Of a DNA stretch of 42,546 nt, positions 1,222 to 27,044 are shown piece by piece. Below the pieces are notes generated by a model. It was not told where the DNA came from. It saw only the letters and a list, made by a program, of their open reading frames with translations, and searched no databases. Every line of letters starts with the position of its first letter. The first letter of the stretch is position 1. Source of the DNA: Candidatus Iainarchaeum sp. (GTDB lineage Archaea; Iainarchaeota; Iainarchaeia; Iainarchaeales; JAZDDZ01); the NCBI GenBank assembly GCA_043809245.1, contig JAZDDZ010000044.1, positions 1 through 42,546 on the forward strand, read 5' to 3'. The position numbers were made by a program, and so were the translations under genes.

Positions 1222-4104
1222 ATGGCTGAAACGCAGGCTGTCATAGCCGAAGAAAAACGGGTTTTGGATTACGTTGAGAAAAAAAACGCATTAGCGGAAG
1301 CAAAAGCCGTGAAGCTTTTAATGAACGCAAAGGAATTCGAAAAAATTGTGGACGAGCTTTTAGGCGAGGGCGTTTTCATTTTAACCGAGGAAAAGGTAAG
1401 GGAAAAAATTCTGAAAAAGGAAACAAAGCTCGGCGCAATAGAGGAAGAGGTTTTGGTTAAAAGGAAAAGCTTCAGGGCATTGGCAGAGGAAAGCGCGCCG
1501 CAGCTGAGGATTTTAAGCGAACTGGATGTAACAAACCAGATGGGCTCAAGGGGAACGGTTAAAAATTTTCTGCAGTTATTCCAGGACAAGTTTGAATTTT
1601 TAAGCTCGGTTTTAAGGCAGAGGATTAACTTTAACCCGAAGCCGATTTCAAGGCTTAATCGCGTGATGAAGAACAGCGAAGTCGACATCATTGGCATGAT
1701 CAGGGATAAAAGGATGAGCAAGAAGGGAAACCCGATTGTTTTTTTGGAGGACTTGGAGGCGGAATGCATTGCTGTTTTCTCCAAAAACGACCAAAGGGTT
1801 TTTGACCTTGCGAAAACAGTGGTGCTTGACGATGTCATAGGCGTGAAGGGAAAAAAAATAAGCGACGAAATGATTGTGGTCAATGACATTTTTTTCCCTG
1901 ATTTGCCGATGAAGCCGATCAAAAAAGTCGAAAGCACGCTGAACCTGGCGGTTATTTCGGACATGCATGTGGGAAGCAAGCTTTTCCTTGAAAAAGAATT
2001 CGGAAAATTCATTTCATGGTTAAACGGGAATGTAGGCTCGGAAAAAGAAATTGAAAGAATTGGCAGGATAAAATACCTGGTTGTGGCAGGGGACAATGTT
2101 GATGGAGTCGGAATTTATCCCGACCAATTTGACGAATTGGCGGTTAAGGACATTTTTGAACAGTACAATATTTTTTCGGAACTGATAAAACAGGTTCCAG
2201 AATACATTAAGGTGATAATCTGCACTCCCAAAGGAACCCTTTTAAAAACAGCCGAAGGTTATAAGCCGGTTGAAGAACTTAAGGAGGGCGACCAGGTCTT
2301 TTCATTTGATGAAAAGCAGGGGCGCGTTGTAACCAACAAGATACGCAACAAAATTAGCAGGTTTGCAAAAAAATTAATTAAACTAACTTTTACTGGTGGA
2401 GTAGAGCTTATTTGCACCCCTGAACATCCACTACTTGTATATGAGAACAAGATGCTAGTATGGAAAAACGCAAGCGAATTAACCGCGGGCAGTTTATTGC
2501 CGGTTCCACGAGCGCATAATGAACAAATGCAGATTAACACACTTGATTTACTGAACAAAATCAACGGAGAAATCTATATCAAAAAGCCTGAAACAATCCT
2601 ACTTTCATGCTATCAAAAAAAATCATTAAACCACATACCGGAAAGAACTAGAAGCAGTTATTTTTCTGGAGAGGCCCCAATGCCCTGGTCTTTGCTTGCA
2701 AAAACGAACAGCAATGAAGAAAAGTCATTTGACTGGCCCATCAAGGTAAAAACGCATCACGGCAATTATGTAAAATTGCCAAAAATCATCCCGCCTGAAT
2801 TTTTATATGCGCTTGGAATATTACTTACAGATGGAAGTTTTTCAAAAATAAAAAACAAATTCCCGGACGGTCGATGCGGGTTTTCCTACAGAGTCAGGAT
2901 ATTTAACTCAAACCAAGAAATAATTAATGCGGTTAAATCCTGCCTGAAAGAATTTGACATTGATCCTACGGAAGAATACATTGAATTTCCAAAAACCAGA
3001 AGCATTGCTGGCAGAGCAGTATCCTTTAGAAAACCTATCTTTAATTTGTCGTACACAAACCGCTTCCTTGGAGAACTGCTAATTGCTTTGGGTATAAATC
3101 CCGGGCCTAAGAAAAAAAGTAGTTTAGGGGCCTTGGCGACTCTTCCCTGGGAACATATAAAATACGTTCTAGGCGGCTTATTCGATGGTGATGGCACAAG
3201 ATCAAAAAAAATGACAACCCTTACTACCTCAAGCAAAAGATTTGCAACAGAAGTATTTTTACTTCTGCAAGAACATGGATTTGCGCCTAATTTAAGGTTA
3301 TCAAATAAAATTAATACAGTCTGCATTCATAGAAACCCCGATATTAAGCGCTTCTTTGGAGAAGTACCGCTAAAGCGTATTTCGAGAGATGTTCCGTCTA
3401 TGAATGACAACATCAGCAAAGGAAGGCTAAATAATGCGTATCCCGTTGATCTCCCCCTGAAAGATTTTGTTTTATGGCGCAAACTGGTGAAAAGTGAAGA
3501 AATAGCAGGTGAAACGGTATATAACCTAGAGGTGGAAAATGCGCACACGTATATTGCAATGGGTTTCATCAACCATAATTGCCCTGGGCAGCATGATGCG
3601 GTTCGAAGGGCCGACCCCCAGCCTGCAGTTCCCAAGGAATTTGTTAAAGATTTGTATTCCCTGAAAAACGTGCATTTTGTGGGAAGCCCTTCATGGGTGG
3701 AAATAGAGGGGCTCAAAACCCTTATTTACCACGGCGCATCTTTGCACGATCTTTATGCTTCGCTTAACTCTTTGAGTTCAAGGGAACCGCACAAGGCAAT
3801 AATTGAAATCCTGAAAAGGAGGAGCCTGATGCCGACTTATGGCTTGAGGCAGCCTTATGTTCCTGAAAAAAAGGATTTTCTGCTGATAAGGGAAGAGCCT
3901 GACCTGTACATTGGCGGAGACATGCATCACACTGGCTTTGCGCAGTACAAGGCATGCACTGTAATAAATTCAAGCACATGGCAGAAGCAGACAAACTTTC
4001 AATTGGAGCAGGGGCACGTTCCCACCCCTGGAATTGCGCTGGAATTGGACCTTCAAACCAGAAGCATGAGGGAAAATTATTTCATTGAACAGGAAAAAGA
4101 GTGA
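1222..4104 (+). CDS. DNA polymerase II (PolD) small subunit DP1, intein-containing (extein 333+175 aa, intein 453 aa)
   Basis: N-terminal DP1 domain. Calcineurin-like phosphoesterase motifs ISDMHVGS and VVAGDNVDG, then ..YIKVII|intein|CPGQHDAVRRADPQP.. and the C-terminal DP1 region (GGDMHHTGF..). Confidence 0.85.
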   Translation: MAETQAVIAEEKRVLDYVEKKNALAEAKAVKLLMNAKEFEKIVDELLGEGVFILTEEKVREKILKKETKLGAIEEEVLVKRKSFRALAEESAPQLRILSELDVTNQMGSRGTVKNFLQLFQDKFEFLSSVLRQRINFNPKPISRLNRVMKNSEVDIIGMIRDKRMSKKGNPIVFLEDLEAECIAVFSKNDQRVFDLAKTVVLDDVIGVKGKKISDEMIVVNDIFFPDLPMKPIKKVESTLNLAVISDMHVGSKLFLEKEFGKFISWLNGNVGSEKEIERIGRIKYLVVAGDNVDGVGIYPDQFDELAVKDIFEQYNIFSELIKQVPEYIKVIICTPKGTLLKTAEGYKPVEELKEGDQVFSFDEKQGRVVTNKIRNKISRFAKKLIKLTFTGGVELICTPEHPLLVYENKMLVWKNASELTAGSLLPVPRAHNEQMQINTLDLLNKINGEIYIKKPETILLSCYQKKSLNHIPERTRSSYFSGEAPMPWSLLAKTNSNEEKSFDWPIKVKTHHGNYVKLPKIIPPEFLYALGILLTDGSFSKIKNKFPDGRCGFSYRVRIFNSNQEIINAVKSCLKEFDIDPTEEYIEFPKTRSIAGRAVSFRKPIFNLSYTNRFLGELLIALGINPGPKKKSSLGALATLPWEHIKYVLGGLFDGDGTRSKKMTTLTTSSKRFATEVFLLLQEHGFAPNLRLSNKINTVCIHRNPDIKRFFGEVPLKRISRDVPSMNDNISKGRLNNAYPVDLPLKDFVLWRKLVKSEEIAGETVYNLEVENAHTYIAMGFINHNCPGQHDAVRRADPQPAVPKEFVKDLYSLKNVHFVGSPSWVEIEGLKTLIYHGASLHDLYASLNSLSSREPHKAIIEILKRRSLMPTYGLRQPYVPEKKDFLLIREEPDLYIGGDMHHTGFAQYKACTVINSSTWQKQTNFQLEQGHVPTPGIALELDLQTRSMRENYFIEQEKE
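2221..3579 (+). mobile_element. Intein with LAGLIDADG homing-endonuclease domain inside DP1 (Cys1 ... His-Asn, +1 Cys)
   Basis: Starts CTPKGTLLK (Cys1) and ends ..GFINHN followed by Cys. Two LAGLIDADG motifs (LYALGILLTDGSF and YVLGGLFDGDGT). It interrupts the phosphoesterase GNHD-type motif. 1359 nt, in frame. Confidence 0.8.
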
Positions 4105-4113
4105 AAAAAATGC
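4096..4113. repeat. Target-site duplication, left copy (aaagagtgaaaaaaatgc), includes the DP1 TGA stop
   Basis: Matches 4201-4219 except for one extra A in the homopolymer. Confidence 0.75.
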
Positions 4114-4200
4114 AGAAAAAGATTAATACCCGCTATATAGAGGAGAGGGGTCAGGATTAACCTAAAACTGGGGGTGCCCTGCAGGGTACCCGCGGTTTGG
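4114..4200. mobile_element. Miniature GC-rich insertion element, copy A (87 bp), between DP1 and DP2
   Basis: Flanked by an 18/19-bp direct duplication. Shares the blocks aaagatt / ggggtcagga / cctNaaactggggg / ggtNccc..gcggtttgg with 22588-22684. Confidence 0.55.
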
Positions 4201-4219
4201 AAAGAGTGAAAAAAAATGC
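4201..4219. repeat. Target-site duplication, right copy (aaagagtgaaaaaaaatgc), includes the DP2 ATG
   Basis: Direct repeat of 4096-4113. Confidence 0.75.
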
Positions 4220-7200
4220 CTGCAATTGAAGCACTGGTGAAAGGAAAAACGCTTAACGGCGCCGGGAAAAACAGCCTTAATTTCACTATTGTCGCAGAGG
4301 AAAGGATAAAAAAATATTATGACGCGATTGCCGCAAAGACCTTTGAACAATTTGAATTGGCGAAAAAGGCGAGGGCAAAGGGAAAAGATGTCAGCATGGA
4401 TGTTGAGACAACTCCCACAATGGACTTGGCTGACAGGTGTGAAAACATCACTGGCCCTAAGGGAATCGCAAAGAGATACAGGGAAGTAATAGAGGAAATG
4501 AAGGGCAACAGGATTAAAACTATTTTCAGGCTGTTTGAGGAAATCATCGCGGAAAAAGGCTTTGACCTTCCTGACCGGGAGAAAAGGCTGGAGCAGGCAA
4601 TGAGGACCTCGCTTGTGCTTGTAACCGAGGGAGTTGTTGTTGCGCCGCTGGACGGGGTGCCACAGGTCAAGATAAGCAAAAACTTTGACGGCTCAGAGTA
4701 CGTTGACATCTTTTACGCGGGCCCGATAAGGGCCGCAGGGGGAACAGCAACAGTGTTTCCGCTGATTTTAGGGGATTACGCCAGAAAGCTGATGGCATTG
4801 GACCGCTATAAGCCGACTGATGATGAAATTGAAAGATATGTCGAGGAAACGCAGATTTACGATGAAATCGTTACAAGGCAGTACAAGTCTTCGCCTGATG
4901 AGGTCAGGAAAATAATCAGGGGCTGCCCTGTATGCATTAACGGTGAACCAACCGAGGAAAGGGAAATCACTGTGCACAAGGACCTTGAAAGGGTTCCAAC
5001 AAACAGGGTTCGCGGAGGAATGTGCTTAGTGATAAGCGAAGGAGTAGGGCAAAAGGCGGCAAAAATTTTGACTTATGCCAAAATGCTTGGCCTTGACTGG
5101 AGATGGCTTGAGGAAATAATAAAGGTAAGCAAAGGCGGCGGAAAAGAGGAAAGCATTGGTCCAAGCACAAAGTACTTGGGAAGGATTGCCGCTGGCAGGC
5201 CAATCTTTTGCTATCCTTCAAGGCCAGGGGGATTCAGGCTGCGCTATGGAAGGGCCAGGACGACTTGCGCAATGGCGAAAGCAGTCCACCCTGCGACAAT
5301 GCAGTTGCTTGACGAATTCATTGCAGTGGGAACGCAATTGAAAGTTGAGAGGCCGGGAAAAAGCGCTGAAATGTTTGCATGTGATTCCATTGAAGGGCCG
5401 ATAGTTAAATTGCTTGACGGAGAGGTCAGGAAAATTGAGTCAATGCGCGAGGCACTTGAAGTGAAAAACAGCCTCAAGGAAATTCTTTTCCTCGGCGACT
5501 ATCTTGTTACGGTTGGGGATTTCAGGAAATCAGCGCATCCATTGATGCCTGTTGGCTACTGCGAGGAATGGTGGGCGCTTGAACTCAAAAAAGCGTTAAG
5601 CGAGGGAAAAGAAGCCGAGGGAGTCAACACGACAAAGGTTTTGAAGGAGCCGAGAAGCGTTGACTGCTTTACCGCTGTTGAAATTTCAATGCAGTCAGGC
5701 GTGCCAATGCACCCGAAATTCACCCACTATTATTCTTTGCTGGAAAAAGAAGAAGCCGTCGCACTTATTTCAGCTGCAAGGAGTGCGGGAAAAAGTTTTG
5801 AGGAAAACCTGATTGTCGAGGCAAGGCTTGAAAACAGTGAAAAAATAAAGGAAATGCTTGAAAAAATCGGATTGCCACACAAAGTTGACGGAAGCGAGCT
5901 TGTTATCGGGCGGGATTACGCTTACCCTTTCCTTAAGACATTCGGCGCATTCAGCAGCGCAGAGGTTCCTGAAGAAAAAAGCGTGCTTGAAATGCTTTCC
6001 GATGTATCGGGCCTGGTGATAAGGGACAAGGCCGGAACATTTGTCGGCACAAGAATGGGAAGGCCAGAGGCTTCAAGGCCGAGGAAAATGGTTGGAAACC
6101 CGCACATGCTTTTCCCGATAGGAATTTACGGGGGAAACACGCGTTCAATAAACAAGGCAATGAATTCAGCGGAAAAAAACCGCGTTGGAAGCATTGAAGT
6201 GGAAATCGCGTCATATTACTGCAAAAAATGCGGAAAAATAAATGCAACGGTTTCATGCACTGAGTGCGGGGGAAGAGCGGAAAAACTGGGCTCATGCACG
6301 AAATGCGGTGCGATGAGCGAAACCGAGAAATGCGCGAGGTGCGGCGCGCAGGTAAGCTTTTACGGCAAAAGAGCTGTTGACATAAACGCCTTGATGACAA
6401 GCGCCTTGCACGAATTAAAGGTAAAGCAGCCGGAAATAGTGAAAGGCGTAAAGGGATTGATGAACAAGGACAAGGAACCCGAGCCATTGGAGAAAGGGAT
6501 TTTACGCGCAGTGCATGATTTGCATATTTTCCGCGATGCGACGATAAGATATGAATTGCTTAACGCTGTGCTGACGCACTTCAAGCCCGAGGAACTCGGG
6601 ACAAGCGTTGAAAAGCTGAAGGAAATGGGTTATGAAAAGGATGTCAATGGAAGGCCATTGGAAAATGAGGGGCAGATGCTGGAGCTTTTTCCCCAGGACA
6701 TAGTCATCCATGAAAACGCGGGGGACTTCCTTGTAAGCGTCACGAAATTCATTGACGATTTGCTGGAAAAGTTTTACTCGCTGCCGCGCTATTACAACAG
6801 GAATTCACGGAATGAACTGGTTGGAGAGCTCGTGTTAGGGCTTGCGCCGCACACCTCAGCCGCGATTGTCGGCAGGATAATTGGCTACACAAAGGCAAGG
6901 CTTAACTTTGCGCATCCCTTTTTCCATTTATGCAAGAGAAGAAACATTGACGGAGACCAGGATTCAATCATGCTGTTAATGGACGGGCTGCTTAACTTCT
7001 CACACCATTATCTGCCAAGCTCACGCGGGGGAAGAATGGATGCTCCGTTGGTTTTCACTATTGCGTTAAATCCCGCGGAAATAGACGATGAAGCGCACGA
7101 GATTGAGACGTGCAGCGAGTATCCATTGGAGCTCTACGAGAAAGCACAGCAGTTTTTGCCTGCAGACATTAGCTCAATTCCAAGGGTAGGGCAAAGGCTT

Positions 7201-7698
7201 GGAAAAATAGGGCAATACACTGGAATAGGCTACACGCATGAAACACGCGTCTTTGACGAGGGCCCAAAGATGTCAAAGTATGTACAGCTTGCGACAATGG
7301 AGGAAAAAATCAAAAGCCAGGCAAAAATACAGTCAAAAATAAAGGCATTGGACAAAAAAGACGCGCTTGAAAGAGTGCTTGTGTCGCATTTTTTGCCTGA
7401 CATAATCGGAAACGCGCGGTCCTTCTCAAGGCAGACGTTTCGGTGCACTAACTGCAATTCAAAGTACCGCAGGATTCCATTGACAGGGAAATGCACGCGC
7501 TGCAAAGACGATGGAAACATTGTGCTCACAATAGCGCAGGGCTCTGTGAGAAAATACCTGCTGCTTGCAAAAGAAATCGTGAACAGCTACGGCTTGTCGA
7601 ATTACTTAAAGCAAAGGCTTGACTTGATACAGCAGGAAGTTGACTCCATTTTCGTGAATGAGAAGACAGACCAGAAAAGTTTGTTTGAATTCGTTTAA
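4216..7698 (+). CDS. DNA polymerase II (PolD) large subunit DP2, no intein
   Basis: 1160 aa. Conserved DP2 blocks (..LAPHTSAAIVGRIIGYT.., ..AHPFFHLCKRRNIDGDQDSIMLLMDGLLNFS..). Cys4 zinc-finger clusters (CKKCG..CTECG; CTKCG..CARCG; CTNCN..CTRC). Confidence 0.9.
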   Translation: MPAIEALVKGKTLNGAGKNSLNFTIVAEERIKKYYDAIAAKTFEQFELAKKARAKGKDVSMDVETTPTMDLADRCENITGPKGIAKRYREVIEEMKGNRIKTIFRLFEEIIAEKGFDLPDREKRLEQAMRTSLVLVTEGVVVAPLDGVPQVKISKNFDGSEYVDIFYAGPIRAAGGTATVFPLILGDYARKLMALDRYKPTDDEIERYVEETQIYDEIVTRQYKSSPDEVRKIIRGCPVCINGEPTEEREITVHKDLERVPTNRVRGGMCLVISEGVGQKAAKILTYAKMLGLDWRWLEEIIKVSKGGGKEESIGPSTKYLGRIAAGRPIFCYPSRPGGFRLRYGRARTTCAMAKAVHPATMQLLDEFIAVGTQLKVERPGKSAEMFACDSIEGPIVKLLDGEVRKIESMREALEVKNSLKEILFLGDYLVTVGDFRKSAHPLMPVGYCEEWWALELKKALSEGKEAEGVNTTKVLKEPRSVDCFTAVEISMQSGVPMHPKFTHYYSLLEKEEAVALISAARSAGKSFEENLIVEARLENSEKIKEMLEKIGLPHKVDGSELVIGRDYAYPFLKTFGAFSSAEVPEEKSVLEMLSDVSGLVIRDKAGTFVGTRMGRPEASRPRKMVGNPHMLFPIGIYGGNTRSINKAMNSAEKNRVGSIEVEIASYYCKKCGKINATVSCTECGGRAEKLGSCTKCGAMSETEKCARCGAQVSFYGKRAVDINALMTSALHELKVKQPEIVKGVKGLMNKDKEPEPLEKGILRAVHDLHIFRDATIRYELLNAVLTHFKPEELGTSVEKLKEMGYEKDVNGRPLENEGQMLELFPQDIVIHENAGDFLVSVTKFIDDLLEKFYSLPRYYNRNSRNELVGELVLGLAPHTSAAIVGRIIGYTKARLNFAHPFFHLCKRRNIDGDQDSIMLLMDGLLNFSHHYLPSSRGGRMDAPLVFTIALNPAEIDDEAHEIETCSEYPLELYEKAQQFLPADISSIPRVGQRLGKIGQYTGIGYTHETRVFDEGPKMSKYVQLATMEEKIKSQAKIQSKIKALDKKDALERVLVSHFLPDIIGNARSFSRQTFRCTNCNSKYRRIPLTGKCTRCKDDGNIVLTIAQGSVRKYLLLAKEIVNSYGLSNYLKQRLDLIQQEVDSIFVNEKTDQKSLFEFV

Positions 7699-21923: not shown

Positions 21924-22667
21924 GTGTTTTTTTTGGAGAAAGGAAGCATAATAAGGCTCAGTTTGACTGGAAGAGACCTTGTCACTGGCAGGGTTTTCGA
22001 GACAACCGATGAAAAAACAGCAAAAGACGCGGGAATTTACCGCGAGAACGCTTCATTCCAGCCTATAACCGCGGTTGTGGGAAAAGGAGAACTGATTGTA
22101 GGGGTTGATGAAGCGCTTGAACAGATGAGTGAAGGCGAGGAAAAGACTGTAAGAATTCCAGCGGAAAAGGCTTTCGGTGAAAGAAAAAAGGAAATGATTG
22201 TTGTCGCGCCATTGGAGCAGTTCAGGAAAAGAAAAATACAGCCTTTTCCGGGATTGGTTGTTGAGATAAACGGCAATTATGGAAGGGTGCAGAGCGTGAG
22301 CGGCGGAAGGGTCAGGGTTGACTTCAACAGCGAGCTCGCTGGAAAAGAGGTTGAATTCAGGTTAAAGGTTGAAAATGAGATAAAGGGAACCGCGGAGAAA
22401 GCTGAAGCTCTTGCGGAAAAATTCTTCCCGTTAAAGGAAAAAAAGGCGGAAGTGAAACTCAATGGAAAAGAGCTTGAAGTGCTTCTCCCCAAAGGGCTGC
22501 CGAAAGAATTTGACGTAATAAAAAAGGTTTTCGAAAAATTCGTGCTTGAAAACGTGAAGGAAATAGAGAAAATCGGCTTCATTGAAGGAAAAGGAAACAC
22601 AAAGATTGATGAAAAATCCATAAAGGAGGGGGGTCAGGAAGACCCTGAAACTGGGGGGGAACAGTAG
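21924..22667 (+). CDS. FKBP-type peptidyl-prolyl cis-trans isomerase (long archaeal type); C-terminus rewritten by insertion of the miniature element
   Basis: FKBP core ..LTGRDLVTGRVFETT..VVGKGELIVGVDEALEQMSEGEEKTVRIPAEKAFGER... GTG/TTG start. The present stop at 22665-22667 lies inside the inserted element. Confidence 0.8.
   Translation: MFFLEKGSIIRLSLTGRDLVTGRVFETTDEKTAKDAGIYRENASFQPITAVVGKGELIVGVDEALEQMSEGEEKTVRIPAEKAFGERKKEMIVVAPLEQFRKRKIQPFPGLVVEINGNYGRVQSVSGGRVRVDFNSELAGKEVEFRLKVENEIKGTAEKAEALAEKFFPLKEKKAEVKLNGKELEVLLPKGLPKEFDVIKKVFEKFVLENVKEIEKIGFIEGKGNTKIDEKSIKEGGQEDPETGGEQ
22553..22587. repeat. Target-site duplication, left copy (35 bp, cgtgaaggaaatagagaaaatcggcttcattgaag)
   Basis: Exact 35/35 match to 22685-22719. 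Confidence 0.85.
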
Positions 22668-22684
22668 GTGCCCCCGCGGTTTGG
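22588..22684. mobile_element. Miniature GC-rich insertion element, copy B (97 bp), inside the 3' end of the FKBP gene
   Basis: Flanked by a perfect 35-bp direct duplication. Shares conserved blocks and the terminal ccgcggtttgg with 4114-4200. Carries the in-frame stop that now ends the FKBP ORF. Confidence 0.55.
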
Positions 22685-22719
22685 CGTGAAGGAAATAGAG
22701 AAAATCGGCTTCATTGAAG
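22685..22719. repeat. Target-site duplication, right copy (35 bp)
   Basis: Exact repeat of 22553-22587. Confidence 0.85.
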
Positions 22720-23607: not shown

Positions 23608-23645
23608 TTGATTAACATAAAGGGCAATTTTTGCGAGGTATTACA

Positions 23646-26600
23646 ATGGATTTACTTAAAGAAATAAAGGAAATAGTCAGCACGTCGCTGCCTGAAGAGG
23701 CGCGCGTTACATCAGTGGACCTTGAAGGGCCGGAGGTTGCGGTTTACACCAAGAACCCAAAGGCTTTCTTTGAGAACGAAAACTTTGTGGCAAAGCTTGC
23801 ATTTGACTTGAAGAAAAGGGTTAACATCAGAACAGACAAAAGCCTGCTTATCCCAGAGGAAGAGGCAAAGAAAAAAATAGAGGAAATTCTGCCAGCTGAC
23901 GCCGGAGTAAAGGACATCCAATTCAATCCCGCTTTCTCGGAAGTCGTAATCGAGGCAATAAAGCCAGGCCTGGTTATAGGCAAGGGCGGGGAAACAAGCA
24001 AAAAAATCATACTTGAGACTGGATGGACGCCGAATATTTTAAGGGCCCCCACGACCCCCTCTGAAATACTGAAGGGAATAAGGCATCACTTGCACAAGTA
24101 CAGCGCGGAGAGGAAAAAAATACTGCAGGAAACCGCGAAAAAAATTTACGAGGAAAGGGACGGCAAAAGCAACGGCTGGATTAGGATGACTGCATTGGGC
24201 GGATACCGCGAAGTTGGAAGAAGCTGCATGCTCGTGGAAACAAGGGACACAAAAATCATAATGGATTGTGGAATAAACGTTGCAAACAGCGATGAGCCAT
24301 ATCCCTATCTTGACGCAATAAGGTTTCCAATAAACGAATTGGATGCAATAATCATCAGCCACGCGCACTTGGACCACTCTGGTTTCACCCCGTACCTTTT
24401 CAAGCTTGGCTATCGTGGGCCAGTATATTGCACTGCCCCAACCCGAGACCTGATGGCTTTGCTGCAGTTCGACTACATTGATGTTTTGCTTAAAGAGGGA
24501 AAAGAGCCGCCTTACAGTGAAAGGGATGTAAAGGAAATGGTAAAGTACTGCATTACAAGGGAATACCGGGAAGTCACGGATATTGCGCCGGACATGAGGT
24601 TAACGTTCCATAACGCTGCGCACATTCTTGGAAGCGCTTCAGTTCACTTGCACATGGGTGAGGGGGCGCACAACCTTGTTTATTCTCTGGACCACAAAGT
24701 GCCTGTAACAATTATAGATAAACACAACAATGTGCATACTGAAGAAATCGGGAAATTGGTTGACAGGGAGATTAAAAAATTTGGAGTTAGTGACGGCTAT
24801 GTTGATGAAGCGGCTAACCTTTCCGGCTGGAAAACCATAGCCTTCAACCCGTTAACGTTAAAGGCGGAAAAAGTCGAGATAACTTCTTTTGTTAGGCATC
24901 CAATCAACGAGGACTTGTTTGAGATTAAAACCAAAAGCGGCAGGAAAACCATTGTTACAGGTTCGCACAGCGTTTTTACTGTTAAAGACGGAATAGTTAC
25001 AGATATTATGGCAAAGGATTTAACACTTGGCGATTACATTGTTGGCTTAAGAAGGCTTAACATAAAAGCCGAAAAACCGATAATTTCGTTGCCTCAAAAT
25101 AAGTTTGCGGTAAAATTAAATGGCGAAAAATTGGAAACCCGCTTGAATGAGACCTATGAAAAGATAAAGAAACGTTTTCCAGATATGGAAAATAAGCTAA
25201 TGTGCTGGGCAAGAGAGCATCTGGAAAACGGCTTGTATGAAAATGCAATTGCCAAAAAGTACAATGCAAGCAGGAAAACTGTAAGAAAATACTTTAAAGA
25301 ATTAGGAATACAAAAAAATCTCCGCAGAGGCACGCTTTTTGCTTCCCAAATCGAAATAAAAAAGGATTTTGCGCGTTTTTTGGGATACTTTGTGTCTGAA
25401 GGTAGCACGAATAAAAACACAGTAATAATTACGCAGTACGATAAGAAAATGCTTGAGGATTCTATCCGGATTATTGAATGTAATTTTGGAATTAAGGGCA
25501 AGATAGTTAGAAATGAAGCACAGTTTTATTCCAAACAGCTGGCATTACTGCTTAAGGAAGTGCTGGCTTGCGGGAATAATGCGCATGCCAAAAGAGCGCC
25601 AAGGCAAATAATGCTTGCTGAAGAAGATGTTATCGCAGAATTTTTGAAGGGGTGCTTTTTAGGCGATGGGTGTTTCATAAAAAAGCCTAAAGGCATGTAT
25701 GTGAACTGTACCTCTAAGAGCAAATTTTTGATTCAGGAAATTGGATTTTTGCTATTGCGAATTGGAATAGCGGCAACATTCACCTATAACAAATCAATTA
25801 GAATGCATAACCTCAACATTTATGGGCAAGAACAGTTAGACCGATTTTTCAAGTTTATTAGTATTGAAAAATGGGAAAATAAATACCGGGCGCATAAGTA
25901 CGCGTATAAAAAAAGTTGTTTTGCAGACAGAATTCCAATATCGGCATTAAGCCAGCAGACACAAGAGACGTTTAATTTAAGTTCGTACAGAGCAGCTAAA
26001 TCATGCAGTACAGCAATGCTTCTACGTTCAAGCCAAAATACTTTGGAGAAAAAACTTGTTGAATCGGACTTACTGTTTGATGAAATAAACAGCATTAGAA
26101 AGGTACGTTCCAGCAGCAAATATGTGTATGATTTTAGTGTAACAGGCTATGAGAATTTTTTAGGCGGTTCAGGGCACCTATTCATGCATAACACCGGTGA
26201 CTTCAAGTACGGTTTCACAAGGCTGTTCAACAACATTGACATGCAGTACCCGAGGCTTGAAACGCTTATAATTGAAAGCACTTACGGTTCAAGGGACGAC
26301 ATAATGCCGCAAAGGCAGGAAGCAGAGGAAATCCTTTTGGAAGTGATAAGGGAGGCAACCGAAAGGGGAGGCAATGTCCTTATACCTGTGTTTGCGGTTG
26401 GAAGGGCACAGGAAATAATGCTTGTAATAGAGAACTTTTACCGCAGGGGATTGATTGACGCAAAAGTCTTTGTTGACGGAATGACAAGGGAGGCAAGCGC
26501 AATTCACACCGCTTACCCTGAGTACCTAAGGGAAATAGTGCAGAGAAGGGTGCTGACAAATGATTCTCCTTTCACTTCAGATGCATTCCAGGTCATAGAC

Positions 26601-27044
26601 CCCCAAAACCGCGACGCAGTATTGAATGAAAAGAAGGCAATAATCATCAGTTCCTCGGGAATGCTTACAGGCGGCCCGGCAGTTTATTACTTTAACAAGA
26701 TGGCAGAAGACCCCTTGAATACGCTTATTTTTGTGGGCTATCAGGGAGAAGGCTCGCAGGGAAGAAAAATTCAGTCAGGGCTGCGTTCAATGCCAGTGAA
26801 TGTCAACGGAAAGACAAGGGAGTTACACATAAAGATGCAGGTGGAGACAGTTGAAGGTTTCAGTGGGCATTCAGATTTTATGCAGCTTGCAAATTATGTA
26901 AGGAACCTAAAGCCCAAGCCAAAGAAAGTCATAGTAGACCACGGCGACCAGTCAAAGACAGTTGAATTCGCGAAATTCCTTGCAAACAAGTTCAAATTGA
27001 ACTGCACTGCGCCAAGAGACCTGGATTCGCTAAGGCTGAAATAA
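23646..27044 (+). CDS. aCPSF1-type beta-CASP/metallo-beta-lactamase RNase with N-terminal KH domains, intein-containing (extein ~630 aa, intein 503 aa)
   Basis: KH motif VIGKGGE. MBL motifs HAHLDHSG and AAHILGSA, then ..HNLVY|intein|TGDFKYG.. and the beta-CASP C-terminus (..GFSGHSD..VDHGD). Confidence 0.85.
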   Translation: MDLLKEIKEIVSTSLPEEARVTSVDLEGPEVAVYTKNPKAFFENENFVAKLAFDLKKRVNIRTDKSLLIPEEEAKKKIEEILPADAGVKDIQFNPAFSEVVIEAIKPGLVIGKGGETSKKIILETGWTPNILRAPTTPSEILKGIRHHLHKYSAERKKILQETAKKIYEERDGKSNGWIRMTALGGYREVGRSCMLVETRDTKIIMDCGINVANSDEPYPYLDAIRFPINELDAIIISHAHLDHSGFTPYLFKLGYRGPVYCTAPTRDLMALLQFDYIDVLLKEGKEPPYSERDVKEMVKYCITREYREVTDIAPDMRLTFHNAAHILGSASVHLHMGEGAHNLVYSLDHKVPVTIIDKHNNVHTEEIGKLVDREIKKFGVSDGYVDEAANLSGWKTIAFNPLTLKAEKVEITSFVRHPINEDLFEIKTKSGRKTIVTGSHSVFTVKDGIVTDIMAKDLTLGDYIVGLRRLNIKAEKPIISLPQNKFAVKLNGEKLETRLNETYEKIKKRFPDMENKLMCWAREHLENGLYENAIAKKYNASRKTVRKYFKELGIQKNLRRGTLFASQIEIKKDFARFLGYFVSEGSTNKNTVIITQYDKKMLEDSIRIIECNFGIKGKIVRNEAQFYSKQLALLLKEVLACGNNAHAKRAPRQIMLAEEDVIAEFLKGCFLGDGCFIKKPKGMYVNCTSKSKFLIQEIGFLLLRIGIAATFTYNKSIRMHNLNIYGQEQLDRFFKFISIEKWENKYRAHKYAYKKSCFADRIPISALSQQTQETFNLSSYRAAKSCSTAMLLRSSQNTLEKKLVESDLLFDEINSIRKVRSSSKYVYDFSVTGYENFLGGSGHLFMHNTGDFKYGFTRLFNNIDMQYPRLETLIIESTYGSRDDIMPQRQEAEEILLEVIREATERGGNVLIPVFAVGRAQEIMLVIENFYRRGLIDAKVFVDGMTREASAIHTAYPEYLREIVQRRVLTNDSPFTSDAFQVIDPQNRDAVLNEKKAIIISSSGMLTGGPAVYYFNKMAEDPLNTLIFVGYQGEGSQGRKIQSGLRSMPVNVNGKTRELHIKMQVETVEGFSGHSDFMQLANYVRNLKPKPKKVIVDHGDQSKTVEFAKFLANKFKLNCTAPRDLDSLRLK
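24684..26192 (+). mobile_element. Intein with LAGLIDADG homing-endonuclease domain inside aCPSF1 (Ser1 ... His-Asn, +1 Thr)
   Basis: Starts SLDHKVPVTIID and ends ..GHLFMHN followed by TGDFK. LAGLIDADG motifs FLGYFVSEGST and FLKGCFLGDGC. 1509 nt, in frame. Inserted immediately before the MBL motif-4 Asp. Confidence 0.8.

What the first reader, a model, noticed from the sequence alone, without database searches (positions are those of the whole stretch)
22588..22684. Element architecture: conserved G-run/C-run hairpins and invariant CCGCGGTTTGG terminus; TSD length varies (18-19 vs 35 bp)
Both copies (4114-4200 and 22588-22684) contain GGGG(G)TCAGGA followed by a short hairpin (CAGG..CCTG/CCTA). 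They then have AAACTGGGGG, a second GC hairpin (copy A: palindrome CCCTGCAGGG; copy B: GGGGG..CCCCC), and the identical 3' end CCGCGGTTTGG abutting the target repeat. The left ends are A-rich (agaaaaagatta / gaaaaggaaacacaaagattga). Two insertions with TSDs of different length suggest a staggered-cut mechanism with loose spacing, more like target-primed or integrase-ruler mechanisms than a classic DDE transposase. No candidate transposase is visible in this window, so the element is presumably non-autonomous. The conserved structure could also mean it is transcribed as a structured RNA.
Basis: partly seen in the sequence, partly recalled or inferred. Interest (0 to 1): 0.6.

Follow-up and report, generated by a model that had tools for sequence, protein, structure and literature searches.

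The report
DPANN triplex-hairpin mobile insertion element
The two look-alike ~90-base stretches are copies of an apparently undescribed, non-coding jumping element found across DPANN archaea: it folds into a hairpin with a third strand laid on it, always ends in the same 11 bases, and duplicates 15-80 bases of its target where it lands.

Summary
Window 4114-4200 and 22588-22684 are two copies of one element, each flanked by direct repeats of its target (18/19 bp and 35 bp). The window is a Diapherotrites (Iainarchaeota) MAG contig. A 25-nt core pattern found at least 116 loci in species-representative genomes, almost all DPANN, and none in viral contigs. The conserved unit is ~60 nt: purine tract, GGTCAGGA-N4-CCT-N-AA, a long hairpin, and the end ...GCGGTT(C/T)GG.

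Compensatory changes support the hairpin. The 5' purine tract mirrors the hairpin's purine strand under the G.G-C / A.A-T / T.A-T rule, which points to an intramolecular triplex on the + strand.

About a quarter of copies have target duplications of 15-79 bp (median ~27) that start right at the conserved 3' end. The 5' extent varies. Orthologous empty sites exist. Some sites were hit twice at identical junctions. Copies cluster at tRNA ends and form whole tRNA introns.

There is no coding capacity, no linked gene, no terminal inverted repeats and no Rfam match. My best reading (about 0.45) is a non-autonomous element copied in from its structured 3' end by an unidentified enzyme acting in trans. 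The mechanism is inferred, not shown.

The parts
4096..4113 (+). Copy A, left copy of the duplicated target (18 nt). It holds the TGA stop of PolD DP1 (4102-4104) and a now orphaned copy of the DP2 ATG (4110-4112).
4114..4138 (+). Copy A, variable A-rich left arm, homologous to the left arm of copy B.
   Evidence: alignment. Left arms vary from 0 to about 110 nt across the family.
4139..4150 (+). Copy A, 5' purine tract (AGAGGAGAGGGG), the proposed third strand of the triplex.
   Evidence: Triplet covariation across 107 unique copies.
4151..4164 (+). Copy A, conserved linker TCAGGA-TTAA-CCT-A with an invariant 3-bp AGG/CCT mini-hairpin.
4165..4198 (+). Copy A, long hairpin P2. Lower stem AAACTG/CGGTTT with a T.G pair and a G.G mismatch; upper stem GGGTGCCC/GGGTACCC; loop TGCA.
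   Evidence: + strand DNA fold -14.7 kcal/mol, z -2.6; - strand z -0.35.
4199..4200 (+). Copy A, terminal GG, the last bases of the element, abutting the right target copy.
4201..4219 (+). Copy A, right copy of the duplicated target (19 nt). It holds the functional ATG of PolD DP2 (4216-4218).
22553..22587 (+). Copy B, left copy of the duplicated target (35 nt), inside the 3' part of the FKBP-type PPIase gene.
22588..22621 (+). Copy B, variable A-rich left arm.
22622..22633 (+). Copy B, 5' purine tract (AAAGGAGGGGGG), the proposed third strand.
22634..22647 (+). Copy B, conserved linker TCAGGA-AGAC-CCT-G.
22648..22682 (+). Copy B, long hairpin P2. It contains the TAG (22665-22667) that now ends the FKBP ORF.
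   Evidence: + strand DNA fold -17.4 kcal/mol, z -3.9; - strand z -1.8.
22683..22684 (+). Copy B, terminal GG.
22685..22719 (+). Copy B, right copy of the duplicated target (35 nt). It is followed in frame by the displaced original K/E-rich C-terminal tail and its stop codon (to about 22778).

Best explanation
SHOWN
- The two stretches belong to a family of small (about 60 to 170 nt), non-coding insertion elements that is widespread in DPANN archaea: Micrarchaeota, Iainarchaeota/Diapherotrites, Altiarchaeota, and single hits in MAGs labelled Woesearchaeota and Thermoplasmatota.
- The only constant part is a ~60-nt 3' module: purine tract, GGTCAGGA-N4-CCT-N-AA, a ~14-bp hairpin, and the end ...GCGGTT(C/T)GG.
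- On the + strand the hairpin is kept by compensatory changes. The 5' purine tract tracks the hairpin's purine strand in mirror order with the triplets G.G-C, A.A-T and T.A-T. This is the code of an antiparallel purine-motif triple helix.
- Insertions are real. The target is duplicated (15-79 bp), and the duplication starts at, or within two bases of, the element's last GG.
- The 5' extent of the inserted piece varies.

INFERRED (mechanism)
- A single-stranded copy of the + strand (RNA or DNA) is recognised by its folded 3' module by an enzyme encoded elsewhere.
- A 3'-OH in the target primes synthesis that starts at the element's 3' end and runs towards its 5' end. Rejoining at a second position in the target leaves the long duplication, as in SINE or R2-type target-primed insertion.
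- The long duplications let the element land on gene junctions in very compact genomes without destroying either gene. In copy A both the DP1 stop and the DP2 start survive.
- tRNA flanks, tRNA anticodon loops and rRNA spacers are preferred or tolerated landing sites. Copies there are transcribed and removed by the normal tRNA-processing enzymes.
For: Family and distribution
- 28 further metagenome loci found with a 3'-anchored pattern.
- 0 viral contigs.

Real insertion
- In the Altiarchaeia tRNA cluster Ser-Ala-Pro-Thr, the element follows tRNA-Ala in L053 only and tRNA-Pro in L064 only.
- In each filled site the native downstream flank follows the second, partial copy of the tRNA 3' end.
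- Removing copy B plus one repeat restores an in-frame K/E-rich tail like those of homologues.

Structure
- Five hairpin pairs show 13-21 double changes among 43 sequences.
- Canonical triplets: 485 of 627, against 373 +/- 9 in 2000 shuffles; none of the shuffles reached the observed value.
- Mutual information is highest on the mirror diagonal.
- Opposite A-T pairs the third base is A 94, G 22, T 12. Opposite G-C pairs it is G 484, A 11, T 3.
- The + strand folds better than the - strand.

Signs of 3'-anchored copying
- The 3' end is precise, with 0-2 extra bases.
- Left arms run from 0 to about 110 nt, and some copies consist of the core alone (L013, L098).
- Some copies are truncated inside the core: L004:835 and L033:124, and L122.
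- There are chimeric partial-core plus full-core copies (L128, L038, L078).
- L002 carries (GGTTC)x5 at the 3' end.
- TSDs span 15-79 bp.

Non-autonomous
- No ORF in any copy. Large variants only add hairpins.
- No neighbouring protein family recurs.

Neutral landing
- TSDs often span a stop codon, a ribosome-binding site or an ATG.
Against: - No reverse transcriptase, polymerase or nuclease partner was identified, and no longer element shares the 3' module.
- No target-primed retroposon is known in Archaea (own knowledge).
- The same site was hit twice with identical junctions on both sides (L081, L082). This fits site- or structure-specific cleavage by an integrase at least as well.
- The triplet code, the many triloops (33 of 66, of which 13 are GNA) and the absence of GNRA among 24 tetraloops point to DNA rather than RNA, on my own knowledge of triplex and hairpin chemistry. 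An RNA intermediate is therefore doubtful.
- Few copies are truncated inside the core: 1 of 28 in the 3'-anchored sample.
- About 70% of copies show no detectable duplication.
- Copies abutting tRNA ends have none.
Confidence: 0.45

Rival explanations
1. DNA transposition by a trans-acting transposase or integrase that cuts the two target strands far apart. Candidates are an IS1634/IS1549-like DDE enzyme or a Cas1/casposase-like integrase that uses target features as a ruler. The element would be its miniature, one-ended substrate.
For: - IS1634 and IS1549 give variable direct repeats of 8-514 bp (PMC2266710).
- Repeated hits at one site with identical junctions (L081, L082).
- Duplications running from the T-loop to just past the tRNA end. 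These resemble casposon arrays and integrase att sites in tRNA genes (own knowledge).
- The DNA-like structural code.
Against: - No terminal inverted repeat and no conserved left end.
- Variable 5' extent and core-only copies.
- No such gene within 2.5 kb of any copy.
- TSD length is not fixed as it is for casposases.
Confidence: 0.2
2. Primarily a host-useful structural module of stable-RNA transcription units rather than a selfish element. It could serve as a leader, trailer, spacer or intron element that blocks exonucleases, terminates or insulates transcription, or guides processing. It would spread secondarily by duplication.
For: - The core ends 1-2 nt before tRNA 5' ends in five independent cases (L030, L085/L132, L102, L136, L144).
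- The core's 3' end coincides with the intron 3' end in L010, L047, L054, L067 and L111.
- The insertion is retained in orthologous tRNA genes whose acceptor stems carry compensatory changes (L047, L111).
- The core lies 35 nt before the 23S rRNA start in L094.
- A sister triplex module sits 1-8 nt after tRNA 3' ends and after the 16S 3' end.
- The sequence is very strongly conserved across phyla.
Against: - About three quarters of copies lie more than 150 nt from any predicted tRNA (rRNA genes were not surveyed).
- Orientation relative to flanking genes is nearly random.
- Copies inside ORF ends replace protein tails (copy B).
- Presence or absence differs between orthologous sites.
- Some copies lie antisense to the adjacent tRNA.
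Confidence: 0.15
3. No dedicated enzyme. The hairpin-triplex stalls replication, and copies arise by template switching (microhomology-mediated, break-induced replication style). This would insert a templated copy and duplicate the flank.
For: - Variable duplications.
- Chimeric and partial copies.
- Tandem arrays in MAG085.
- (GGTTC)n slippage in L002.
- Strong potential for non-B DNA.
Against: - A passive process does not explain the invariant single-stranded linker (GGTCAGGA, CCT-N-AAAC) conserved across phyla.
- It does not explain the exact 3' boundary.
- It does not explain repeated identical junctions.
- There is little microhomology at junctions.
Confidence: 0.1
4. An archaeal 'introner': a mobile element removed from any transcript by the tRNA-splicing endonuclease at a bulge-helix-bulge motif, so that insertions into genes are harmless.
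For: - At least seven copies make up whole anticodon-loop introns of otherwise intact tRNA genes.
- DPANN endonucleases are reported to have broad specificity (abstract of PMC5829648, listed).
Against: - By inspection, no bulge-helix-bulge can be formed by the core with arbitrary flanks, because direct repeats cannot pair with each other.
- One intron copy is in reverse orientation (L025).
- In copy B the ORF simply reads into the element and stops.
- Most copies are intergenic.
Confidence: 0.05

Closest known systems
SINEs and other non-autonomous target-primed (non-LTR) retroposons, especially the 'stringent' type whose structured 3' tail is recognised by the partner's reverse transcriptase (UnaSINE/UnaL2, R2). 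Own knowledge.
   Same: Precise, structured 3' end. Variable 5' extent and occasional 5' truncation. Variable-length target duplications. Chimeric copies. Short-repeat slippage at the 3' end. No coding capacity.
   Different: No poly(A) or A-rich 3' tail. No internal promoter. No partner element or reverse transcriptase found. The host is archaeal. The structural code looks DNA-like. Junctions were reproduced when one site was hit twice.
Prokaryotic MITEs (for example Sulfolobus SM elements, Correia, RUP)
   Same: Small, non-coding, multi-copy, mostly intergenic, flanked by target duplications, mobilised in trans.
   Different: No terminal inverted repeats. Only one conserved end. Duplications are long (15-79 bp) and of variable length rather than short and fixed. 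The core is conserved across phyla.
IS1634 / IS1549 family insertion sequences (PMC2266710)
   Same: Long target duplications whose length differs from copy to copy (8-514 bp), with no accepted mechanistic model.
   Different: Those are autonomous 1.5-2 kb IS elements with a DDE transposase and inverted-repeat ends, found in bacteria.
Casposons / Cas1 integrases, and tyrosine-integrase elements that target tRNA genes (own knowledge)
   Same: Direct repeats covering the tRNA gene from the T-loop or anticodon loop to its 3' end. Tandem arrays at one site with the repeat reiterated.
   Different: Those elements are kilobases long and encode their integrase. Casposon duplications are fixed at 14-15 bp. 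Integrase att repeats are carried by the element, so they do not explain many unrelated targets.
REP/BIME elements and IS200/IS605-derived palindromic elements (own knowledge)
   Same: A function that depends on a hairpin folded from one DNA strand. Small, intergenic and multi-copy.
   Different: Those insert without target duplication and depend on a Y1 HUH transposase (TnpA or RAYT). Neither a conserved target tetranucleotide nor such a gene was seen here.
Triple-helix RNA 3'-end elements next to tRNA-like structures (MALAT1/MEN-beta ENE plus mascRNA) and H-DNA mirror repeats (own knowledge)
   Same: A third strand laid on a hairpin. In several loci the module lies directly next to an RNase P or tRNase Z site.
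   Different: ENEs use U.A-U triples that clamp an A-rich 3' tail. Here the code is purine.purine-pyrimidine, and the third strand is the 5' tract. H-DNA needs no hairpin on the same strand.
Families of related tRNA introns in Archaea ('intron transposition' in Thermoproteales). Own knowledge; review PMC4090602 was listed but not read.
   Same: Related sequences occupy introns of different tRNA genes.
   Different: Here most copies lie outside tRNAs, have target duplications, and occur in both orientations.

Membership tests
MITE | Terminal inverted repeats matching a parent IS | tested here: not met
   The right end is always ...GCGGTT(C/T)GG. Left ends share no sequence with it or with each other.
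MITE | Short target duplication of fixed length | tested here: not met
   Duplications are 15-79 bp, median about 27.
MITE | Small, non-coding, multi-copy | tested here: met
SINE / target-primed retroposon | Precise 3' end, variable or truncated 5' end, variable target duplication | tested here: met
SINE / target-primed retroposon | Partner element encoding a reverse transcriptase and sharing the 3' tail | tested here: not met
   No ORF-bearing copy and no recurrent neighbouring gene in about 0.85 Mb around the genome-scan copies. Whole genomes could not be searched.
SINE / target-primed retroposon | RNA intermediate | not testable with these tools
   No transcript data. The structural code leans towards DNA.
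IS200/IS605-type palindromic element or REP | Insertion without target duplication, next to a fixed tetra- or pentanucleotide | tested here: not met
   Long duplications are present. No conserved base flanks the element.
Casposon / Cas1-type integration | Fixed 14-15 bp duplication and inverted-repeat ends | tested here: not met
   No TIRs.
Archaeal bulge-helix-bulge intron | Located in a tRNA or rRNA gene at a splice site, with exons intact | tested here: met
   True for a subset only: L010, L025, L047, L054, L067, L111. Not true of the two window copies.
Archaeal bulge-helix-bulge intron | Bulge-helix-bulge motif at the boundaries | tested here: inconclusive
   Hand inspection of L010 gives a possible 4-bp central helix. 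No general motif can form with arbitrary flanks. No dedicated search tool was available.
Any Rfam 15 family | Score at or above the family's gathering threshold | tested here: not met
   The best hit is GP_knot1 at 17 bits against a 67.7-bit threshold (E 0.39). tRNA and rRNA controls were found.
Purine-motif intramolecular triplex (R*.R-Y) | Third strand antiparallel to the purine strand, with G.G-C, A.A-T and T.A-T triplets | tested here: met
   Covariation in the mirror register: 485 of 627 against 373 +/- 9 in shuffles. The same rule holds in the A-rich module L. Physical formation was not tested.

The most novel reading that the evidence does not exclude
An archaeal retroposon. Under this reading the element's RNA is cut out of tRNA leaders, inter-tRNA spacers or tRNA introns by RNase P, tRNase Z or the splicing endonuclease. 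It is shielded at its ends by purine-motif triple helices and copied back into the genome by target-primed synthesis. It would be the first SINE-like, TPRT-type element in Archaea, and the first natural purine.purine-pyrimidine triple helix of 6-8 layers supported by three-way covariation.
Probability: 0.2. Interest if true: 0.9.

Novelty: new variant of a known kind. Interest (0 to 1): 0.8.

Why it matters
- DPANN archaea have tiny, gene-dense genomes and were not known to carry a shared small mobile element. This one occurs in at least three or four of their phyla with an almost invariant core, which implies either recent exchange or one conserved mobilising machine.
- Its long, site-defined target duplications show how an element can land on a gene junction without killing either gene.
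- The three-strand covariation is unusually clean sequence evidence for a natural intramolecular purine-motif triplex. It gives structural biologists a defined 60-nt test object.
- Elements that form whole tRNA introns bear on the old question of how archaeal tRNA introns and split tRNAs arise.
- Practically, these copies break assemblies, alter annotated protein C-termini (as in the FKBP gene here), and hide tRNA genes from standard finders.

Tried and rejected
- **Known RNA families.** Rfam at gathering and at permissive thresholds, on the window and on two related loci, found nothing. tRNA and rRNA controls were found. The weak GP_knot1 resemblance (E 0.39) is treated as chance.
- **tRNAs in the window.** None.
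- **Viral origin.** 0 hits in viral contigs.
- **Autonomous partner.** The large variants only carry extra hairpins. The inverted pair in L034 merely flanks housekeeping genes. All-against-all clustering of 495 flanking ORFs gave no recurrent family.
- **Own promoter.** No positional TATA-like signal upstream, and no conserved base downstream.
- **Orientation relative to genes.** Near random: 48 same versus 31 opposite for the downstream gene. TSD-bearing copies next to tRNAs are all co-oriented with the tRNA, but those in protein genes are mixed.
- **Empty site for the window's own copies.** The closest FKBP homologue is only 60% identical, so I used C-terminal comparison instead. I spent the metagenome scan on a 3'-anchored pattern.
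- **Retro-copied 'core plus tRNA' units.** No repeats flank core-plus-tRNA.
- **Other readings set aside.** Diversity-generating-retroelement-like A-specific mismatches in imperfect repeats are not seen. HDV-like, hammerhead, twister and pistol ribozymes, riboswitch, SRP and ORB-box readings were considered from memory and dropped because the motifs do not fit.
- **Strand of the triplex.** A pyrimidine-motif triplex on the - strand has the same geometry. It is disfavoured because T in the third strand would become A, because it would need runs of C+.G-C, and because the - strand folds worse.
- **Literature.** Six full-text searches found no description of the element.
Full report
**1.

Window 4114-4200 (copy A) and 22588-22684 (copy B) share the following features.
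- A homologous A-rich left arm.
- A purine run.
- GGGGTCAGGA-N4-CCT-N-AAACTGGGGG.
- A G+C-rich hairpin.
- The terminus CCCGCGGTTTGG.

Each long motif occurs exactly twice in the window, against about 0 expected. Copy A is flanked by aaagagtgaaaaaaa(a)tgc (4096-4113 and 4201-4219). Copy B is flanked by a perfect 35-nt repeat (22553-22587 and 22685-22719). A covariance model built from other genomes finds only these two copies in the window, at 70.9 and 69.1 bits; the next hit scores 9 bits.

**2. Genomic context**

The window is a complete 42,546-nt contig of a 'Candidatus Diapherotrites archaeon' (Iainarchaeota) MAG.

Copy A sits exactly between the two DNA polymerase D genes, DP1 (1222-4104) and DP2 (4216-7698). 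The duplicated 18/19 nt contain the DP1 stop and the DP2 start, so both genes stay intact. A 10-codon ORF now hangs on the orphaned ATG.

Copy B lies in the 3' end of an FKBP-type prolyl isomerase gene. The ORF now runs into the element and stops at a TAG inside the hairpin. Deleting the element plus one repeat restores an in-frame lysine/glutamate-rich tail like those of homologues.

**3. It is a family**

- Almost all hits are DPANN: mainly Micrarchaeota, then Altiarchaeota and Iainarchaeota, with one MAG labelled Woesearchaeota and one labelled Thermoplasmatota.
- A 3'-anchored pattern found 28 more loci in metagenomes.
- Viral contigs gave nothing.
- Rfam has no match, and six literature searches found no description.

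**4. Anatomy**

Only about 60 nt are constant. In order they are:
- a 7-12 nt purine tract;
- GGTCAGGA-N4-CCT-N-AA, containing an invariant 3-bp AGG/CCT stem;
- a long hairpin: AACTG/CGGTT with a conserved T.G pair, a G.G mismatch, then a 7-8 bp stem;
- the end (C/T)GG.

The variable stem shows 13-21 double compensatory changes at each of five pairs among 43 sequences. Its loop, or the junction before it, sometimes carries 20-90 nt of extra hairpins but never an ORF.

**5. A third strand**

The purine tract is a mirror image of the hairpin's purine strand. The base k nt upstream of TCAGGA tracks the hairpin pair at position k+1.
- At k=4 there are 63 A.A-T, 27 G.G-C and 9 T.A-T triplets.
- Over k=4-9, 485 of 627 triplets are canonical. 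Shuffling tracts among sequences gives 373 +/- 9, and none of 2000 shuffles reaches the observed value. Every shifted register scores lower.
- Mutual information peaks on the mirror diagonal.
- Opposite A-T pairs the third base is A 94, G 22, T 12. Opposite G-C pairs it is G 484, A 11, T 3.

This is the code of an antiparallel purine-motif triplex on the + strand. The - strand alternative (a pyrimidine motif) has the same geometry. It fits less well for three reasons: the T variants would become A, it would need long runs of C+.G-C, and the - strand folds worse (z -0.35 and -1.8, against -2.6 and -3.9 for the + strand).

From my own knowledge, purine-motif triplexes are stable in DNA but have not been shown for all-RNA strands. 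Loop statistics point the same way: 33 of 66 loops are triloops, 13 of those are GNA closed by C-G or T-A, and none of 24 tetraloops is GNRA. This leans towards folded single-stranded DNA. The invariant T.G (U.G) pair, and the fact that some copies are certainly transcribed, keep RNA open.

**6. Insertions and duplications**

About a quarter of copies have recognisable flanking repeats of 15-79 bp, median about 27. The repeat starts at the last GG or 1-2 nt after it.

The other border lies 0 to about 110 nt upstream of the core.
- Some copies are core-only (L013, L098).
- A few are cut inside the core (L004:835, L033:124, L122).
- Some are chimeras of a partial core plus a full core (L128, L038, L078).
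- L002 ends in (GGTTC)x5.

Orthologous comparison gives empty sites. In two Altiarchaeia tRNA clusters the element follows tRNA-Ala in L053 only and tRNA-Pro in L064 only. Each time, the native downstream flank follows the second, partial tRNA copy.

Two sites were hit more than once by different subfamily members, with identical junctions on both sides: L081 (T-E1-T-E2-T) and L082 (T-E-T-E-E-T). Duplication length is therefore a property of the site, not random.

Duplicated segments often span stop codons, ribosome-binding sites and start codons (and reading the sequences). This explains how insertions survive in genomes with almost no intergenic space.

**7. tRNA and rRNA association**

31 of 121 copies lie within 150 nt of a predicted tRNA. 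Several geometries recur.
- The core's 3' end lies 1-2 nt before a tRNA 5' end: L030, L085/L132, L102, L136, L144.
- The core's 3' end abuts the 3' end of an opposite-strand tRNA: L022, L024, L065, L114, L116, L121.
- The element follows a tRNA and duplicates the gene from the T-loop or variable region to a few bases past its end. All such copies are co-oriented with the tRNA: L041, L043, L053, L056, L064, L072/L126, L077, L098.
- The element forms the whole anticodon-loop intron, with its 3' end at the 3' splice site: L010, L047, L054, L067, L111. One copy is reversed, with that end at the 5' splice site (L025).

L047 and L111 carry the insertion in orthologous tRNA genes whose acceptor stems show compensatory changes. 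These genes are therefore presumably functional and spliced. In L094 the core lies in the rRNA spacer, 35 nt before the 23S start.

**8. A sister module**

Many left arms contain CCC-[T-rich tract]-loop-[A-rich tract]-GG-TCT...CCCC-[A-rich tract]. The last tract is again the mirror of the hairpin's purine strand: mirror fits better than direct in 15 of 25 cases, equally in 9, and worse in 1.

This module also occurs without the core. It lies 1-8 nt after the 3' end of same-strand tRNAs (9 of 33), after the 16S 3' end, and inside a tRNA-Ala intron. The motif CCC(C/A)AAAAGAAAA lies no more than 150 nt upstream of a core in 32 of its 57 occurrences.

**9. No partner**

No copy encodes anything. 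ORFs within 2.5 kb form no recurrent family. Orientation relative to neighbouring genes is near random. No promoter-like signal is positioned upstream.

**10. Mechanism**

Shown:
- real insertions;
- a fixed structured 3' end;
- a variable 5' end;
- long target duplications defined by the site;
- mobilisation in trans.

Inferred as most likely (about 0.45): synthesis primed from a target 3'-OH on a single-stranded copy of the + strand. It would start at the folded 3' module, which serves as the recognition handle, and rejoin at a second target position.

Rivals:
- a transposase or integrase with widely spaced cuts (0.2). Variable direct repeats of 8-514 bp are documented for IS1634 and IS1549, and the reproducible junctions favour this reading;
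- a host-useful processing or termination module that spreads secondarily (0.15);
- enzyme-free template switching at a non-B DNA structure (0.1);
- a spliced 'introner' (0.05).

**11. Comparison and novelty**

The element behaves most like a SINE or an R2-type 3'-anchored retroposon, and superficially like a MITE. It fails defining tests of each.
- It has no inverted-repeat ends.
- It has no fixed short duplication.
- No partner was found.
- No poly(A) tail is present.

It also fails the no-duplication rule of IS200/IS605-type and REP elements and the fixed 14-15 bp duplication of casposons. I therefore rate it a new variant of a known kind (non-autonomous insertion elements). Its architecture combines a triplex-hairpin, one defined end and long site-defined duplications, and I could not find this combination described.

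Noticed in passing
window 1222-4104 and 23631-27044: Both the PolD small subunit DP1 and the aCPSF1/FttA termination factor carry an intein with a LAGLIDADG homing-endonuclease domain (Pfam Intein_splicing plus LAGLIDADG_3).
   Followed up: partly
window 4110-4142: The duplicated DP2 start codon in the left target copy now opens a 10-codon ORF (MQKKINTRYI*) that runs into copy A. It is probably a by-product of the insertion.
   Followed up: no
L053:1151-1201, L053:1592-1642, L094:6188-6520 (- strand), L080:794-840, and others: A second triplex-type module: CCC-T-rich tract, loop, A-rich tract-GG, TCT..., CCCC-A-rich tract that mirrors the second. It sits 1-8 nt after tRNA 3' ends, after the 16S rRNA 3' end and inside a tRNA-Ala intron, with or without the core element. 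It may act as a terminator or be an element in its own right.
   Followed up: partly
L002:6390-6430: The element's 3' end is reiterated as (GGTTC)x5 before a T-arm-like flank. This indicates slippage at the terminus.
   Followed up: no
L081:4360-4630 and L082:430-800 (- strand): The same target segment (23-30 nt and 37 nt) is present three times, with different element copies in between. This means repeated insertion at identical junctions.
   Followed up: yes
L066, L087, L107 and many contig ends of MAG085 (JBFLYM01): One Micrarchaeota MAG has head-to-tail arrays of the element and a 51-nt tandem repeat of its left-arm motif. Several of its contigs start inside a copy, so the repeats appear to break the assembly.
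   Followed up: partly
window 22626-22661: There is a weak sequence resemblance (17 bits, E 0.39) to the gammaretroviral gag-pol readthrough pseudoknot family GP_knot1, including AGGA-AAC-CCU-AAA-U-GGGGGG. I treated it as chance.
   Followed up: no
L134:2240-2335, L027:4209-4270, L052 and L060: Some copies carry extra, well-paired hairpins inserted in the N4 loop or between AAACTGGGG and the main hairpin. This shows which parts of the core tolerate expansion.
   Followed up: no
window 21924-22667: The public annotation of this MAG (244-aa protein, P0001) calls the FKBP protein with the element-derived C-terminal tail. The element has silently changed an annotated protein.
   Followed up: partly
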